DNA of 61,304 bases from a virus (IMGVR_UViG_3300015155_000017), one strand, 5' to 3'; shown: positions 710-51,027, counted from the stretch's first letter. Numbers and translations are program-made. The notes: generated from the sequence alone by a model not told the origin.

Positions 710-726
710 ATTGCTCTAATAAATAT
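710..726 (+). promoter_or_regulatory. C1 repressor operator (ATTGCTCTAATAAATAT)
   Basis: Near-exact match to the P1 17-bp C1 operator consensus, upstream of the uhr-hrdC-dmt operon. Confidence 0.65.
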
Positions 727-797
727 TGTTTTTTATGTCGTGTTTTCGGTACCATTCAGCCGTCGCCCTTCAATGGGCATTTGTTTGGAGTCGTCAG

Positions 798-1082
798 ATG
801 CAGATGGAGCTAATAAGCCGCAAGGAGTTCGATAGCCGTGTAACCAGCGGTGAACTCGACAACTTGCAGGCTATCAAGGTGAAAGAAGGCTTTTGCCTCA
901 TTGGGAATCAGAGCGGAACAAATCGCGTTTTTATGCTTCGCCGTACGGATTTGAAGCCATTTGTCTGGAAGAACGAAATTGGTCCCAGCTCATACGCTCA
1001 AACGAGGGGGTGCCACAACCTGGCCTTTTTCTACAAAGACGAGCTTTCTGTGGTTGATATTCAAGGGTTACAACATGTTTAA
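798..1082 (+). CDS. uhr: hypothetical protein upstream of hrdC
   Basis: ORF with GGAG SD before ATG 798; stop overlaps hrdC start (ATGTTTAA); name from P1 position only. Confidence 0.4.
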
Positions 1083-1980
1083 GCACTGGAAAAACATTAC
1101 TATTTATAAACTTTCTCGTGAGGCGGATCTGACCGACTTAGAAGATAAAAAGAAAATGATCCTTTTCACGCCATGCGGTAGTCAGGATATGGCCAAGTTC
1201 GGTTTTGTATCTCCATTTGGTGATAATTCCGAAGTTATCGCTATGCATGGAAATGGTTTTATCCTTGTTGAAGCAAAGCGCGAAACAAAAATTCTTCCCC
1301 CGCCGGTTATCCAGCGAGCTATTCAAGAAAAAATTGAAAAACTTGAGCAAGAACAAGCGCGTAAACTGAAGAAAACAGAGAAGGACTCCCTGAAAGACGA
1401 AGTTCTGCATTCTCTTCTGCCACGGGCTTTTTCAAAGTTTTCTGTTATCCAGGCGATCTACGACGGTTCAACTAAACGTATCTATATCAATGCCAGCGCG
1501 CGGCAGGCAGAGGATATGCTCGCGCTTATGCGTAAGTCTCTGGGTTCTCTTCCTGTTGTTCCCCTGAGTGTTGAAAATCCCATTGAATTAACGCTGACCG
1601 ACTGGGTACGTGATGGTAGTGCTCCACAGGGATTTCAAATGGGGGATGCGGCAGAACTTAAGGCAGTGCTTGAGGATGGCGGTATTGCCCGAGTGAAAAA
1701 GCAGGATTTGGGAAGCGATGAAATTTCCACACACCTGGAAGCTGGCAAGCTCGTTACTAAGTTGGCACTCGACTGGCAGAACCGCATTAAATTTACACTG
1801 GACCATAACTTCAGCCTTACCAGCGTCAAATTTGCGGATGAATTGCTTGAGCAGAACTCTGATATTGATAGTGAAGATGTTGCGCAGCGACTGGACGCAG
1901 ATTTCTTCCTGTTGACCAGTGAAATTTCGTGCCTGGTTGATGCTCTGGTAAATGCCCTTGGTGGAGAGGCTAAGCAGTGA
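1075..1980 (+). CDS. hrdC: RdgC-like recombination-associated protein (301 aa)
   Basis: N-terminus [13 protein letters not shown] matches the RdgC family; P1 hrdC position. Confidence 0.85.
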
Positions 1981-4241
1981 AAGAGCTGTGCTATGGATCT
2001 GTTTGCAGTGGAATTGAAGCCGCGAGTATTGCCTGGGAACCGTTGGGTATGCGTCCGGCGTGGTTTGCTGAAATCGAGCCTTTTCCATCTGCCGTTCTTG
2101 CGCACCGCTGGCCCCATGTCGCCAACCTTGGCGACATGACAAAACTTGCCAAAAAAGTCCTGGCTGGGGAAATCGAATCCCCTGATGTGCTCGTCGGGGG
2201 TACGCCTTGTCAGGCATTCAGTATCGCGGGCTTACGTGGTGGGCTTGATGATGAACGCGGCGCGCTAACTTTGAAGTATGTGGAGCTTGCAAATGCAATT
2301 GACGACAAACGGTCTGAGTCCTTCCTCAAACCGACAGTTATCGTCTGGGAAAATGTCCCAGGAGTCCTGTCATCGGCAGATAACGCCTTCGGATGTTTCC
2401 TTGCCGGATTGGCTGGAGAAGATGCGCCATTTGAACCAGGTGATCGACCTGAATCAGGAAAAAGTAACGCGTTCTGGCGGTGGGATGGCAAAACCGGTTG
2501 CCATGCTCCAAAGTGGCCGCAGTGTGGTTGTATTTATGGACCGCAGCGAAAGGTGGCCTGGAGAATCCTTGATGCCCAATACTTCGGAGTGGCACAACGA
2601 CGCCGACGCGTGTTTGTTGTCGCAAGTGCTCGAACAGACCTCGATCCCGCAACGGTACTTTTTGAGTTCGAAGGCGTGCGTCGGAATATTGCGCCGAGCC
2701 GAAAAAAGAAGGAAATCGCTTCCGCCATTATTGCAAATGGCGCTGCAATCAGTGGCGAAAGCCTAAATCCATGCCTACACGCTGACATGCCACCCGGTAT
2801 GAAATCGACGAAAGCCGTAAACGCTTTCAGGATGGCAGCATTTGGGGAATATATTGACGATGAAACCGCATCGACAGTAAAGGCAAGAGATTTTAAAGAT
2901 GCCACTGACCTTGCCGTTTTTAGCAGCACAGGAGCAGGTTTTTGGTCAGAAGGGCATGGTACATTGCGGGCACGTGAGCAAGAAAGCCATGAGCATCTTG
3001 TTACATTGGCTTTTCCTGAGCGTATGAGCGGTACACAACATGCTGCAACTAAGAATACTTCACCATCTCTAATGGCTAAAAATCCAACAGCTGTTTGCTA
3101 TGAAGTAAGAAACGCAGAAGTAGCTGTCCGCCGTCTTACCCCTGTCGAATGTGAAAGGCTGCAAGGTTTTCCTGATGGGCATACGTTGATCCCGACGGAA
3201 AAGCGTAAAAAAGTTAATTCAGATGAACTGGCATATCTTCGCAATCACTATCCAGATTTAAGCGAAGAAGAGGCCGCGATGCTTGCAGCTGACGGACCGC
3301 GTTACAAAGCGATCGGCAATAGTATGGCAATACCAGTAATGCGCTGGATTGGCGATCGGATTACTAAGGCCGTATGTCGGCAGAAAGAAGGAAGTGAAAC
3401 AAAAGAGCGAAAAGTTAAACCAGCGGCAGAATTCGAACGGTCCATATTCAAATGGGCTGGTGGAAAATTTGGTGTTCTGGAACAAATCTTTCGCTATTTG
3501 CCAGAAGGGAAGCGCCTGATCGAACCTTTTGTCGGTGGCGGAGCTGTCTTCACGAATGCCGGATACCAGGAAAATCTGCTAAATGATGTGAATGCTGACC
3601 TGATTAACTTTTACAAGACTCTGCAACGCGAGGCGCATTCACTTATCACTCTGGCACATCGTTTCTTCCAGGACTACAACACGCAGGAAGGATACCTGGC
3701 AGTACGGAATGCGTTTAACAAACAAGTCTATGATGATTTACATCGCGCAGCGGCGTTTTTGTTCCTGAACCGACATTGTTTTAACGGATTGACGCGTTAC
3801 AACCAAGCCGGTGAGTTCAATGTCGGTTATGGGAAGTATAAAACTCCGTATTTCCCATTGCAGGAGATGGAAGCCTTCCTTGGTGCGGAAGGGCGTTCTG
3901 AGTTTGTATGTGGTGATTTTGCTGCGGTGATTGAAGCTGCCGGAGAAGGAGATGTCATCTTTTGCGATCCGCCGTATGAACCGCTCCCAAATACAGAGGG
4001 ATTCACGAACTATTCCGGTCATGACTTTAAGTTTGAAGAGCAAAAACGCCTGGCGTCTCTGTTGACGGATGCTCATCGCCGAGGTGCAAAGGTTCTCATT
4101 ACTAACAGTGGCGCGCCAAACATCAGAGAACTTTATCAGGACAGTGGCTTCAGAGTGGAACCTCTTTTTGCCAGACGTTCTGTGTCTTGTAAGGGGGACA
4201 CTCGAGGTGTTGCTCATGACGTTATGGCAATATTGCTCTAA
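1977..4241 (+). CDS. dmt: bifunctional DNA methyltransferase: N-terminal C5-cytosine domain, C-terminal Dam-like N6-adenine domain
   Basis: PCQ motif ([12 protein letters not shown]) and ENV motif (VIVWENVPG) in the N half; [14 protein letters not shown] and DPPY motifs in the C half; GTG start overlaps hrdC stop. Confidence 0.9.
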
Positions 4242-4248
4242 TAAATTT
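4232..4248 (+). promoter_or_regulatory. C1 operator overlapping the dmt stop codon
   Basis: ATTGCTCTAATAAATTT exact consensus. Confidence 0.6.
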
Positions 4249-4425
4249 ATTAGTGTAATATCGCCTCAATGAATCGTGATTTATAGAGCGATTTAGCTGT
4301 TAGCCGCGACAGGCGCGGCGGCAAGTATGGCGGGGTAGTGACTCCTTCCCCCTCATGACGCCGAGTTGCCAGGTTGACCATACGCCTAAGTGGCAACACC
4401 GAAGTGCGTTACGAGCTTCCAGTTT

Positions 4426-4451
4426 GCCCATCTTCGGGTGGGCGTTTTTTT
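4426..4451 (+). terminator. rho-independent terminator-like hairpin
   Basis: GCCCA-loop-TGGGC stem followed by GTTTTTTT. Confidence 0.45.
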
Positions 4452-50040: not shown

Positions 50041-50066
50041 ACCCCGGCGGCTGCCGGGGTTCTCGT
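50041..50066. terminator. bidirectional terminator between pro and the lysis genes
   Basis: ACCCCGGC GGCT GCCGGGGT. Confidence 0.6.
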
Positions 50067-50072
50067 TAACTA

Positions 50073-50327
50073 TTATCGCCTTCGCCTGCGTGCCATATAT
50101 TTGCGCACCGCGCGGCGTGGACAATCTGAAGCGGTTTCTTTCTGCTGCATCAATCTTGCAGCCATGCTCAAAAATGTCAGGCACAGCCGAAGCCCAGCAT
50201 ACAATAGCGGTTCCAGTGGCCACGTCTCATTGAGCACATATACCGCCATGAAAATCGAGTCGAAAACTATCGCCGCCAGCGATAACTTCATTGTCGAAAG
50301 TCGGCGGAGCTGCCGGAGTTTATTCAT
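50073..50327 (-). CDS. small membrane protein downstream of lyz (84 aa)
   Basis: ATG overlaps the lyz stop region; hydrophobic segment. Confidence 0.45.
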   Translation of the reverse strand: MNKLRQLRRLSTMKLSLAAIVFDSIFMAVYVLNETWPLEPLLYAGLRLCLTFLSMAARLMQQKETASDCPRRAVRKYMARRRRR

Positions 50328-50877
50328 TGACCAGTCCTGTCAGGCAAAGCTGGCGTTCTTTTTCACGGCGAATCTTTAAACCTCGCAGGGGCACGCCGTT
50401 ACTGTTCACGAAATCAGGGAGATGGTTACACATATTCACCCATTCCCCTTTCTGCGCCCACTTGTGGATGGACGTTTCTACTCGCATGCCTCGCGCTTTG
50501 CTGTAGTAGGTTCGTAAGCTATTGCATCCCATATTGAATGCCGCGCTTGTCATTGCACTGAAGGCATTATCGGGCATGTCTTTGCCCCGGAAGTGCTGAT
50601 TAATACAGCGTTCAGCGATCAGGATATTCTTTTCCCAATCAGCGGCGATTTGCTGGTCTGTTTTTCGCACACCCGGCGTTACCCCGTGTGTATTACCGAT
50701 CCCGTCAGTCCATACCCCTGCCGGACACATGTATGGATCACGTCGGCAACCTTCAGCGTTTCCGATAAGCTCAAGCCCCGCCTGGTTGGTTCGCACATTG
50801 CCATTACCCATCACGATGGTAATCATCACCGCGATAGCGCAAATTGCACCGCCTCCTGCGGCTGTTTTTCCCTTCAT
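50320..50877 (-). CDS. lyz: SAR (signal-arrest-release) endolysin, lysozyme (185 aa)
   Basis: MKGKTAAGGGAICAIAVMITIVMGNGNVRTNQAGLELIGNAEGC matches the P1 Lyz SAR domain as I recall it. Confidence 0.9.
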   Translation of the reverse strand: MKGKTAAGGGAICAIAVMITIVMGNGNVRTNQAGLELIGNAEGCRRDPYMCPAGVWTDGIGNTHGVTPGVRKTDQQIAADWEKNILIAERCINQHFRGKDMPDNAFSAMTSAAFNMGCNSLRTYYSKARGMRVETSIHKWAQKGEWVNMCNHLPDFVNSNGVPLRGLKIRREKERQLCLTGLVNE

Positions 50878-50975
50878 AAAGACCTCATAAGCGAATTTTT
50901 TACGCTCCAGGACAAACACCCATTCACAGCCAATACCGACTGACTCGATCCCTTTAGAAGGCACAGGATAATGCA

Positions 50976-50988
50976 AATCACTTGTTAG
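50976..50988 (-). promoter_or_regulatory. candidate late promoter element (CTAACAAGTGATT on minus strand) upstream of lyz
   Basis: Motif family member. Confidence 0.3.
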
Positions 50989-51010
50989 CTACGTTTCAAA
51001 GATATACATT

Positions 51011-51027
51011 ATTGCTCTAATTAATTT
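51011..51027 (+). promoter_or_regulatory. C1 operator upstream of ssb
   Basis: ATTGCTCTAATTAATTT. Confidence 0.6.

What the first reader, a model, noticed from the sequence alone, without database searches (positions are those of the whole stretch)
710..51027. Dispersed C1 operators, including pairs bracketing a terminator and overlapping stop codons
At least ten strong matches to ATTGCTCTAATAAATTT were found (710, 4232, 17721, 17770 inverted, 19862, 30189, 34927 inverted, 35010, 36571, 37048/37061, 51011) plus ATTGCACTAAT-type variants at 14097 and 34465. Unusual placements are operators lying on the stop codons of dmt and of the 19356..19862 gene, and two inverted operators bracketing a bidirectional terminator at 17747..17776.
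Basis: partly seen in the sequence, partly recalled or inferred. Interest (0 to 1): 0.35.

Follow-up and report, generated by a model that had tools for sequence, protein, structure and literature searches.

The report
Known phage P1 C1 repressor operators
The repeated 17-base motif is the well-known set of binding sites for the C1 repressor that keeps phage P1 dormant; this window is a P1-type phage-plasmid, so the finding is correct but ordinary, apart from two sites that the reference P1 and P7 records do not annotate.

Summary
The window is a P1-type phage/plasmid, 99% identical to P1 from P1 nt 64436 and running through lox to about nt 32000. The motif ATTGCTCTAATAAATTT is real: 15 matches against 0.28 expected, and the exact 11-mer core occurs 11 times against about 0.03 expected. 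All 17 C1 operators that GenBank AF234172 annotates in this stretch are present at the homologous positions: 16 are base-identical and Op83 is degraded. Operators that abut or overlap upstream stop codons are the rule (7 of 19 sites), and four such junctions are conserved in JK004. The hairpin between Op86a and Op86b is real and shows covariation, but it is terminator-like on the + strand only, not bidirectional. Two motif sites are not annotated in P1. Window 36571 lies between cre and c8; 67 of 73 relatives keep its core, while P1 and P7 carry TATAAT there. Window 47161 lies in the darB 5' end and is near-perfect in divergent lineages. Verdict: already known, low interest.

The parts
710..726 (+). 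Odmt (Op68), ATTGCTCTAATAAATAT; its 3' end meets the -35 of Pdmt, upstream of uhr-hrdC-dmt
   Evidence: Identical to P1 65145-65161, annotated as C1 protein_bind; 27.5 bits; 59/64 relatives identical; JK004 has a site at the homologous position
4232..4259 (.). Bivalent operator Obanab (Op72a on +, 4232-4248; Op72b on -, 4243-4259); Op72a positions 8-10 are the dmt stop codon TAA (4239-4241); overlaps P1ban/P2ban
   Evidence: Identical to P1 68667-68694; 29.0 and 24.1 bits; dmt ends at 4241
14097..14113 (-). O26 (Op82), ATTGCACTAATAATTTT, in the divergent gp26 / pmgL control region
   Evidence: Identical to P1 78528-78544; 26.4 bits; 63/68 relatives identical
15004..15020 (-). Oppp (Op83), degraded here: TATGTACTAATTAATTT against P1 CATGCACTAATTAATTT
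   Evidence: 10.1 bits against 21.4 for the P1 form; 12/73 relatives share this form; no hit of 14 bits or more at the homologous place in JK004
17721..17737 (+). OpmgRa (Op86a), begins 1 nt after the pmgQ stop (17717-17719)
   Evidence: Identical to P1 82152-82168; 78/81 relatives identical; conserved in JK004 and in loci L334-L338
17746..17775 (+). Conserved hairpin (11-bp stem 17746-17756 / 17763-17773, 6-nt loop) followed by a T6 run. Terminator-like on the + strand only. The T6 run is also the A-rich tail of Op86b on the other strand
   Evidence: dG -13.4 kcal/mol, z -4.5; 96.5% of cells paired against 36-73% for slid controls, 2 pairs with compensatory changes, and G.U pairs that work only on the + strand; not called by the simple terminator scan
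17770..17786 (-). OpmgRb (Op86b), inverted relative to Op86a with a 49-bp offset; ends 14 nt before the pmgR ATG (17801)
   Evidence: Identical to P1 82201-82217; the 49-bp offset is kept in JK004 and L334-L338
19862..19878 (+). OpmgT (Op88); position 1 is the last base of the pap stop codon TGA
   Evidence: Identical to P1 84293-84309; the same 1-nt overlap with the pap homologue in JK004
30189..30205 (+). Olpa (Op94), ATTGCTCTAATGTATTG, 1 nt after the pdcB stop; controls lpa, the late-promoter activator
   Evidence: Identical to P1 89904-89920; 85/96 relatives identical
33517..34368 (-). c1, the repressor that binds these sites (283 aa)
   Evidence: 281/283 identical to P1 C1.100; 77% identical to JK004 C1
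34452..34479 (.). Bivalent Oc1ab (Op99b on +, 34452-34468, very weak match; Op99a on -, 34463-34479) over Pc1; position 1 of Op99a is the last base of the coi stop codon
   Evidence: Identical to P1 94166-94193; Op99a 24.8 bits, Op99b -7.2 bits; Op99a identical in 81/81 relatives
34635..34651 (-). Oc1c (Op99c), ATTGCTCTAACGCTTTA, inside coi
   Evidence: Identical to P1 94349-94365; 81/81 relatives identical
34927..34943 (-). Oc1d (Op99d) over P1coi
   Evidence: Identical to P1 94641-94657; 27.3 bits; homologous site in JK004
35010..35026 (+). Oc1e (Op99e), next to P4cre
   Evidence: Identical to P1 94724-94740; homologous site in JK004
36571..36587 (+). Candidate operator not annotated in P1 or P7: ATTGCTCTAATACTTTG, 17 nt after the cre stop and 16 nt before the c8 ATG
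   Evidence: 21.8 bits, never in the training set; P1 and P7 have ATTGCTATAATTATTTG and no operator feature there; core intact in 62/63 and 67/73 relatives; 25.8-bit site in the same cre-c8 spacer in JK004
37048..37064 (+). Oref (Op2a), followed by a 13-bp near-repeat (37061-) whose TATAAT (37066-37071) is the -10 of P2ref
   Evidence: Identical to P1 1962-1978; the half-site scores 5.6 bits
37714..37730 (+). Omat (Op2b), CATGCACTAATAAATAT; positions 8-10 are the ref stop codon TAA (37721-37723)
   Evidence: Identical to P1 2628-2645; 21.7 bits
47161..47177 (+). Candidate or relic operator ATTGCCCTAATGTATTT inside darB codons 19-24 (opposite strand), 146 bp upstream of prt; not annotated in P1
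   Evidence: 16.7 bits; identical in P1, which has no operator feature there; a 21-28-bit site at the same offset in five divergent loci and in JK004; variants with A at position 6 score 24.4 bits
51011..51027 (+). Ossb (Op21), 19 nt before the ssb start codon
   Evidence: Identical to P1 21015-21031; core kept in loci whose flanks differ by 27-30%
34479..34688 (-). coi, the C1 inactivator
   Evidence: Maps to P1 94193-94402
39745..39993 (-). lxc (bof), the C1 co-repressor
   Evidence: Maps to P1 9750-9998

Best explanation
These are the operators of the P1 immunity regulon. Each asymmetric 17-bp site (consensus ATTGCTCTAATAAATTT) is bound by the C1 repressor encoded at 33517-34368, helped by the co-repressor Lxc and antagonised by Coi. 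The sites sit on or next to sigma-70 promoters of early and lytic functions (dmt, ban, ssb, ref, mat, lpa, pmgR/S, pmgT, and coi/c1 itself). One repressor therefore silences many scattered transcription units in the plasmid prophage. The genome is compact and the motif carries TAA in two frames, so operators commonly begin at or within the stop codon of the preceding gene. Between Op86a and Op86b lies a conserved + strand hairpin with a U tract. It most likely ends the upstream pmgL-pmgQ transcript, so that the essential pmgR-pmgS unit depends on C1-controlled entry. How C1 and this hairpin interact is inferred, not shown. The identity of the sites, their enrichment, their conservation and the RNA covariation are shown here. 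C1 binding and the roles of Lxc and Coi come from established P1 literature, not from this work.
For: The window is 99% identical to P1. All 17 C1 protein_bind features that AF234172 annotates in this stretch are present at the homologous positions: 16 are base-identical and Op83 is altered. Enrichment: 15 matches against 0.28 expected, and the 11-mer core 11 times against about 0.03. C1 is 281/283 identical to P1 C1; coi and lxc are present. Literature: 22 C1 operators are dispersed on P1 with this consensus, Lxc enhances C1 binding and Coi inactivates C1 (PMC8546580). ssb, dmt, ban and ref are induced when C1 is inactivated (PMC4713147). Conservation: JK004 (about 70% nt identity, C1 77%) has 17 hits of at least 14 bits against 0.25 in shuffles, and 13 of them lie at positions homologous to window sites. 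Within close relatives the sites are nearly invariant while flanks vary by 1-8%. Stop-codon junctions are conserved in JK004 for pmgQ/Op86a, pap/OpmgT, pdcB/Olpa and coi/Oc1a. [quoted passage not shown] A strong terminator follows pmgS at 19303-19331.
Against: Op99b (-7.2 bits) and Op99c (8.3 bits leave-one-out) would not be recognised from sequence alone. Conversely, 47161 carries C at position 6, which no annotated P1 operator has. The annotated PpmgR -10 (TAAAAC) is weak and not conserved (TAAAGC, TGAAGC in relatives), so the promoter that Op86a is supposed to control is uncertain. The simple terminator scan did not call the 17746-17775 hairpin. The stem has only 4 G-C pairs.
Confidence: 0.95

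Rival explanations
1. The motif is a shared promoter element (its TTGCTC resembles a -35 and its TGCTCTAAT an extended -10) recognised by RNA polymerase, rather than a repressor site.
For: Many copies overlap annotated -35 or -10 hexamers. A single C-to-A change turns the core into TGCTATAAT at the cre-c8 site of P1/P7 and at the annotated P2ref -10.
Against: All 17 bases are conserved, not just a hexamer. Sites occur at varying registers relative to promoters, inside genes (Op99c, 47161) and in both orientations. The sites are annotated as C1-binding in the P1 record, a plasmid carrying one consensus operator was used to add C1 binding sites in vivo, and the genes are de-repressed when C1 is inactivated.
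Confidence: 0.02
2. The two un-annotated matches (36571 and 47161) are non-functional relics or by-products of other constraints, and only the 17 annotated operators matter in this element.
For: 47161 lies in darB codons 19-24 (K-Y-I-R-A-I), so protein coding constrains the core. It has C at position 6, seen in no annotated P1 operator, and scores only 16.7 bits. P1 and P7 are viable with a disrupted core at the cre-c8 site. No promoter is mapped next to either site.
Against: The 36571 core is kept in 67/73 and 62/63 relatives although flanks differ by 7.7%. It is the only long conserved block in the cre-c8 spacer of JK004, where C8 itself is only 48% identical. At the darB site, divergent lineages use two rare AGA codons that spell a 28-bit operator. 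Uniform synonymous codon choice would give that spelling about 1 time in 864; this figure is my own calculation, not a tool result.
Confidence: 0.35
3. The inverted repeat between Op86a and Op86b is a DNA palindrome bound by a dimeric protein, or it forms a cruciform. It is not an RNA hairpin or terminator.
For: It is a perfect 11-bp palindrome in P1-type sequences, and compensatory changes also preserve DNA symmetry.
Against: Four stem positions show changes that keep G.U pairing on the + strand RNA but break DNA symmetry and - strand pairing. The T6 tract directly after the stem is invariant in all lineages.
Confidence: 0.08

Closest known systems
C1-controlled operators of bacteriophage P1 (Op2a/b, Op21, Op68, Op72ab, Op82, Op83, Op86a/b, Op88, Op94, Op99a-e; renamed Oref ... 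Oc1e in GenBank AF234172)
   Same: Same sequences at the same homologous positions: 16 of 17 are base-identical. Same repressor, same consensus and same gene neighbours.
   Different: Op83 is degraded here (10.1 against 21.4 bits). This element has an intact operator core between cre and c8 where P1 has TATAAT. Surrounding accessory DNA differs (no EcoP1 res-mod, no IS1, 6.4-kb replacement at 20112-26476).
Phage P7 C1 operators (GenBank AF503408)
   Same: Same immunity system and operator set. P7 annotates Op(ref) and both Op86 sites.
   Different: P7, like P1, has ATTGCTATAAT at the cre-c8 site. In P7 the ref 3' end is interrupted by a Tn3 insertion (ref is extended by 36 aa), and no Omat operator feature is annotated in the stretch examined.
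Lambda-type CI/Cro operators
   Same: Repressor-bound sites overlapping lytic promoters that maintain lysogeny.
   Different: From established knowledge, not tested here: lambda operators are symmetric, bound by dimers and clustered at two loci. C1 operators are asymmetric 17-mers dispersed over the whole genome. One search supports the asymmetry and dispersal; monomer binding of C1 is my recollection.
Rho-independent terminators
   Same: Stem-loop followed by a U6 tract, placed just after the last gene of an operon (pmgQ), with RNA-level covariation.
   Different: Weak stem (4 G-C pairs, -13.4 kcal/mol). Flanked within 12 nt and 0 nt by two inverted repressor sites, and its U tract doubles as the tail of Op86b.

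Membership tests
P1/P7 C1 repressor operators | Asymmetric 17-bp match to ATTGCTCTAATAAATTT | tested here: met
   15 sites with up to 3 mismatches against 0.28 expected; PWM scores 16-29 bits for 16 sites. Op99b and the window's Op83 fail on sequence alone.
P1/P7 C1 repressor operators | Positional identity with operators mapped or annotated in P1 | tested here: met
   16 of 17 annotated operators in the covered P1 region are found base-identical at homologous window positions, and Op83 is found altered. Not met for 36571 and 47161, where P1 annotates no operator.
P1/P7 C1 repressor operators | Cognate repressor C1 and its modulators Coi and Lxc encoded in the same element | tested here: met
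   C1 is 281/283 identical to P1; coi at 34479-34688 and lxc at 39745-39993 map to the P1 genes.
P1/P7 C1 repressor operators | Location on or beside promoters of lytic or early genes | tested here: met
   Transferred from P1 annotation: Pdmt, P1/P2ban, P1/P2ssb, P2ref, Plpa, Pc1, P1coi, P4cre, PpmgR and P1/P2pmgT overlap or adjoin the sites. Several of these promoters are only predicted.
P1/P7 C1 repressor operators | Conservation of the sites in related phages that carry a C1 homologue | tested here: met
   JK004 (C1 77% identical) has sites at homologous positions for Odmt, O26, Op86a/b, OpmgT, Olpa, Oc1a/d/e, Oref, Ossb, the cre-c8 site and the darB 5' site, plus two sites upstream of ban.
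P1/P7 C1 repressor operators | Direct binding by C1 (footprint or EMSA) and de-repression on C1 inactivation | not testable with these tools
   Known for P1 from the literature (PMC8546580; PMC4713147). Not measured for this element or for the two un-annotated sites.
Rho-independent (intrinsic) terminator, for the hairpin at 17746-17775 | Stable stem-loop immediately followed by a U tract on the transcribed strand | tested here: inconclusive
   The fold gives an 11-bp stem, -13.4 kcal/mol, z -4.5, then U6. The consensus scan did not call it, probably because four of the T's pair with the upstream A run (my inference).
Rho-independent (intrinsic) terminator, for the hairpin at 17746-17775 | Structure maintained by compensatory substitutions | tested here: met
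   2 pairs changed on both sides, 4 positions with G.U, 96.5% paired against 36-73% in slid controls. Only about 4 independent lineages were available.
   The - strand tail is UUUUAAAAAU in the window. It is absent in JK004 and L334 (CTTC/CTTT followed by A runs). The G.U substitutions would be C.A mismatches on the - strand. No - strand gene converges here.
Rho-independent (intrinsic) terminator, for the hairpin at 17746-17775 | Measured termination activity | not testable with these tools
   Needs Term-seq, Northern blotting or in vitro transcription.

The most novel reading that the evidence does not exclude
P1-type phage-plasmids may carry conserved C1 operators beyond the canonical list. 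One lies directly upstream of c8 (window 36571). It is intact in about 92% of natural relatives and in a relative about 70% identical, but it is converted to an extended -10-like TGCTATAAT in the laboratory references P1 and P7. That would make c8 C1-repressed in the wild type and possibly constitutive in P1/P7. A second lies in the darB 5' end, 146 bp upstream of prt (window 47161). In addition, the Op86a-hairpin-Op86b unit may be a composite element. In it, C1 bound at Op86b sits on the terminator's U tract and would strengthen termination ahead of the essential pmgR gene in lysogens.
Probability: 0.4. Interest if true: 0.3.

Novelty: already known. Interest (0 to 1): 0.15.

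Why it matters
The C1 operator network is textbook P1 biology, so confirming it in another P1-type plasmid adds little. The practical value is in the corrections. The operator map taken from reference P1/P7 appears to miss at least one site that most natural P1-like elements possess, the one upstream of c8. These elements are widespread carriers of resistance genes. If confirmed, models that count C1 binding sites per genome would need adjusting for wild elements; published work uses 22 per P1 genome. The regulation of c8, a poorly understood lysogeny-establishment gene, would also differ between laboratory and natural phages.

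Tried and rejected
(1) The P1 genome paper (Lobocka et al. 2004, PMC523184) is not held, so I used the GenBank feature table. I could not check whether the paper lists a terminator between Op86a and Op86b or discusses the cre-c8 site.

(2) Literature searches for Op86, for extra operators and for the consensus string found only general statements. The P1vir transcriptome paper does not mention pmgR, pmgS or darB in its main text.

(3) A genome-contig scan for operator-gap-inverted-operator gave only two Escherichia hits plus unrelated palindromes, so it added no lineages.

(4) First-round related-locus searches with this window's C1 and PmgS returned only relatives 99-100% identical. Divergent lineages were reached by querying with Prt, with Dmt and with the JK004 proteins.

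(5) The Dmt-divergent loci L280, L283, L287 and L290 had no operator hit of 14 bits or more within the DNA held, so Odmt/Oban conservation in those lineages is unresolved.

(6) Pfam gives no family for C1, Coi, Lxc, PmgQ or PmgR, and only sub-threshold matches for C8 and PmgS. Rfam finds only the three tRNAs.

(7) I considered whether the large 66-nt RNA fold (-26.9 kcal/mol) is itself a feature. I rejected this because its outer stem is simply the two inverted operators.

(8) I looked for a leftward promoter at Op86b and for alternative -10 elements for pmgR by reading the sequence. None was convincing.

Full report
**What the window is.** Megablast places window 1-20111 on phage P1 (AF234172) nt 64436-84542 at 99.0% identity. 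Window 27821-38433 lies on P1 87536 through the record's end and lox to 3347. Window 39745-51736 lies on P1 9750-21740, and window 53236-60993 on P1 24246-32000. The window is therefore about two thirds of a P1-type phage-plasmid. It runs from upfB/dmt through the immunity C region, lox-cre, darB and ssb to the lyd/cin region.

**Checking the observation.** The motif ATTGCTCTAATAAATTT with up to three mismatches occurs 15 times against 0.28 expected, and none of 100 shuffles came close. The exact 11-mer core ATTGCTCTAAT occurs 11 times against about 0.03 expected. The only slip is 34465, which is really 34463-34479 on the minus strand. It scores 5.6 bits, and its TATAAT is the annotated -10 of P2ref. 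It is a 13-bp near-duplicate of the Oref core with C7 changed to A.

**What the sites are.** The P1 GenBank record annotates each C1 operator as a protein_bind feature. I extracted all 17 that fall in the P1 region covered by the window. Sixteen are present base-for-base:
- Odmt/Op68 at 710
- Obana/Op72a at 4232 and Obanb/Op72b at 4243(-)
- O26/Op82 at 14097(-)
- OpmgRa/Op86a at 17721 and OpmgRb/Op86b at 17770(-)
- OpmgT/Op88 at 19862
- Olpa/Op94 at 30189
- Oc1b at 34452, Oc1a at 34463(-), Oc1c at 34635(-), Oc1d at 34927(-) and Oc1e at 35010
- Oref/Op2a at 37048 and Omat/Op2b at 37714
- Ossb/Op21 at 51011

The seventeenth, Oppp/Op83, is present at 15004(-) but altered. It reads TATGTACTAATTAATTT and scores 10.1 bits, against 21.4 for the P1 form.

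The repressor gene c1 is at 33517-34368(-) and is 281/283 identical to P1 C1.100. coi and lxc are also present. The literature held here states that 22 C1 operators with exactly this asymmetric consensus are dispersed over P1, that Lxc strengthens C1 binding and that Coi inactivates C1 (PMC8546580). It also shows that ssb, dmt, ban and ref are induced when C1 is inactivated (PMC4713147).

About 300 loci from IMG/VR P1-like contigs show the operator sequences nearly invariant while the 100-bp flanks differ by 1-8%. The stronger test is Cronobacter phage JK004. It is about 70% identical at the nucleotide level, with C1 77% identical. A PWM built from the P1 operators gives 17 hits of at least 14 bits there against 0.25 in shuffles. 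Thirteen of them map to positions homologous to window sites: Odmt, O26, Op86a, Op86b, OpmgT, Olpa, Oc1a, Oc1d, Oc1e, Oref and Ossb, plus the two un-annotated sites discussed below. Two further hits lie just upstream of ban. The sites are therefore conserved in position across about 30% divergence.

**Operators on stop codons.** Gene ends mapped from P1 show the following:
- The dmt TAA (4239-4241) is operator positions 8-10 of Op72a.
- The ref TAA (37721-37723) is positions 8-10 of Omat.
- The last base of the pap TGA is position 1 of OpmgT.
- The last base of the coi stop is position 1 of Oc1a.
- Op86a starts 1 nt after the pmgQ stop, Olpa starts 1 nt after the pdcB stop, and Oc1c starts 2 nt after the imcB stop.

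That makes seven of 19 sites, so this is the usual arrangement and not an oddity. It follows from a compact genome and from a motif that contains TAA in two frames, so an upstream ORF reading into it usually ends there (inference). In JK004 the same junctions recur for pmgQ/Op86a, pap/OpmgT, pdcB/Olpa and coi/Oc1a. The dmt/Oban overlap does not recur there: an extra gene intervenes and two direct sites precede ban.

**The 'bidirectional terminator'.** Between Op86a and Op86b lies AAAACGTGATG-tacact-CATCACGTTTT followed by TT (17746-17775). It folds at -13.4 kcal/mol with z about -4.5. The 66-nt fold at -26.9 kcal/mol is just this hairpin plus the two inverted operators pairing with each other.

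Five divergent lineages (JK004, L334, L335-337, L338) keep the same layout. It is operator, 12 nt, an 11-bp stem with a 6-nt loop, T6, then the inverted operator at an identical 49-bp offset. Two stem pairs change on both sides (G-C to A-U and A-U to G-C), and four positions show G.U pairs. Overall 96.5% of cells pair, against 36-73% when the 3' partners are slid. The G.U changes would be C.A mismatches on the minus strand. The T6 run is invariant on the plus strand only, and on the minus-strand side JK004 and L334 have no T run.

Both flanking genes, pmgQ and pmgR, are on the plus strand. The element is therefore a conserved plus-strand RNA hairpin with a U tract, most simply an intrinsic terminator ending the pmgL-pmgQ transcript. 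It is not bidirectional.

There are caveats. The simple terminator scan did not call it. The stem has only four G-C pairs, and only about four independent lineages support the covariation.

The T6 run is also the A-rich tail of Op86b, so C1 bound there would sit exactly at the termination point. Whether this strengthens termination is speculation. The annotated PpmgR -10 (TAAAAC) lies in the 5' arm of the stem and drifts to TAAAGC and TGAAGC in relatives. [quoted passage not shown]

**Two sites that are not in the P1 list.**

(a) *Window 36571-36587*, ATTGCTCTAATACTTTG, lies 17 nt after the cre stop and 16 nt before the c8 ATG. It scores 21.8 bits without ever being in the training set, higher than 7 of the 16 annotated operators scored leave-one-out. 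P1 and P7 have ATTGCTATAATTATTTG there, and neither record annotates an operator. In IMG/VR relatives the core ATTGCTCTAAT is intact in 62 of 63 loci (C1-anchored set, flanks 7.7% divergent) and in 67 of 73 loci (Cre-anchored set). Only 1 and 3 loci respectively carry the P1 form. JK004 and L414 keep a 25.8-bit site in the same spacer although C8 is only 48% identical. The P1/P7 change creates TGCTATAAT, which reads as an extended -10 (my reading of the sequence). The likeliest account is that this is a genuine C1 operator controlling c8 in most P1-like elements, and that it was lost in the two reference phages. This remains an inference until C1 binding is tested.

(b) *Window 47161-47177*, ATTGCCCTAATGTATTT, is identical in P1 and lies in darB codons 19-24 on the opposite strand, 146 bp upstream of prt. 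It scores 16.7 bits and has C at position 6, which no annotated P1 operator has. At exactly the same offset, five divergent loci and JK004 have a 21-28-bit site, mostly ATTGCTCTAATAAATCT. Some close relatives have ATTGCACTAATATATTT at 24.4 bits. Coding constraint (I-R-A-I) confounds conservation of the core. However, the divergent lineages spell the operator with two rare AGA codons, which argues for selection at the DNA level there. In this window the site may be weakened or a relic.

**Verdict.** The finding is a correct rediscovery of the P1 C1 operator set, so it is already known and of low interest. The leads worth keeping are the un-annotated but conserved operator upstream of c8, the darB 5' site, and the conserved, unidirectional hairpin embedded between Op86a and Op86b.

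Noticed in passing
window 20112-26476: A 6.4-kb segment with no counterpart in P1 replaces P1 84543-85181 (pmgT region). Its ORFs include two Ead/Ea22-like proteins (21516-22073, 22070-22858) and a DUF551 protein (23906-24769). No operator-like site lies in it.
   Followed up: partly
window 38434-39744: The EcoP1 type III res-mod system of P1 (about 6.4 kb) is absent. In its place is 1.3 kb of low-GC DNA (GC about 0.40 over 38001-40000) with one 346-aa minus-strand ORF (38652-39692) that matches DUF2971.
   Followed up: partly
window 53205-53236 and 51737-52420: P1 nt 22532-24245, which includes IS1 (22626-23393) and isaB, is missing; only 30 bp lie between the flanking P1 blocks. A 0.7-kb stretch downstream of ssb (51737-52420) also differs from P1.
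   Followed up: no
window 15004-15020: Op83 (Oppp) carries C1-to-T and C5-to-T changes relative to P1, dropping from 21.4 to 10.1 bits. Twelve of 73 relatives share this form, and JK004 has no site at the homologous place. This operator seems dispensable or decaying.
   Followed up: partly
window 37048-37077: Oref is followed by a 13-bp near-duplicate (ATTGCTCTAATTG / ATTGCTATAATTG). The second copy's C-to-A change yields the P2ref -10 TATAAT. The same single change separates operator and promoter-like forms at the cre-c8 site, which hints that operators and -10 elements interconvert by one substitution.
   Followed up: partly
window 37714-37730 (P1 2628-2645): The P1 record places Omat on the minus strand as an 18-nt feature, but the motif (CATGCACTAATAAATAT) reads on the plus strand. 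This looks like a strand slip in the annotation.
   Followed up: yes
window 19303-19331 (+) and 19933-19911 (-): A strong terminator-like hairpin follows pmgS (11 pairs, 6 G-C, T5). A minus-strand terminator-like hairpin sits between OpmgT and the downstream ORF, inside the leader of the C1-controlled unit.
   Followed up: no
L235-L238 and L240 at about 6720(-); JK004 80796(-): Divergent P1-like lineages have an extra strong operator (up to 27 bits) at the 3' end of pro. This window and P1 lack it: no hit of 9 bits or more near window 50029.
   Followed up: partly
JK004 (L325) 29881 and 29909, both +: Upstream of ban, JK004 has two direct operator matches 28 bp apart instead of the overlapping inverted bivalent Op72ab of P1. 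The tRNA/tci/plp block between dmt and ban is absent there.
   Followed up: no
window 4917-4992, 4995-5070, 6502-6577: Three tRNA genes lie in the C1-controlled ban leader: Asn-GTT, Thr-TGT and a CAT-anticodon tRNA. ARAGORN calls the last one Met, and P1 annotates it as tRNA-Ile2. All three match the P1 annotation.
   Followed up: yes
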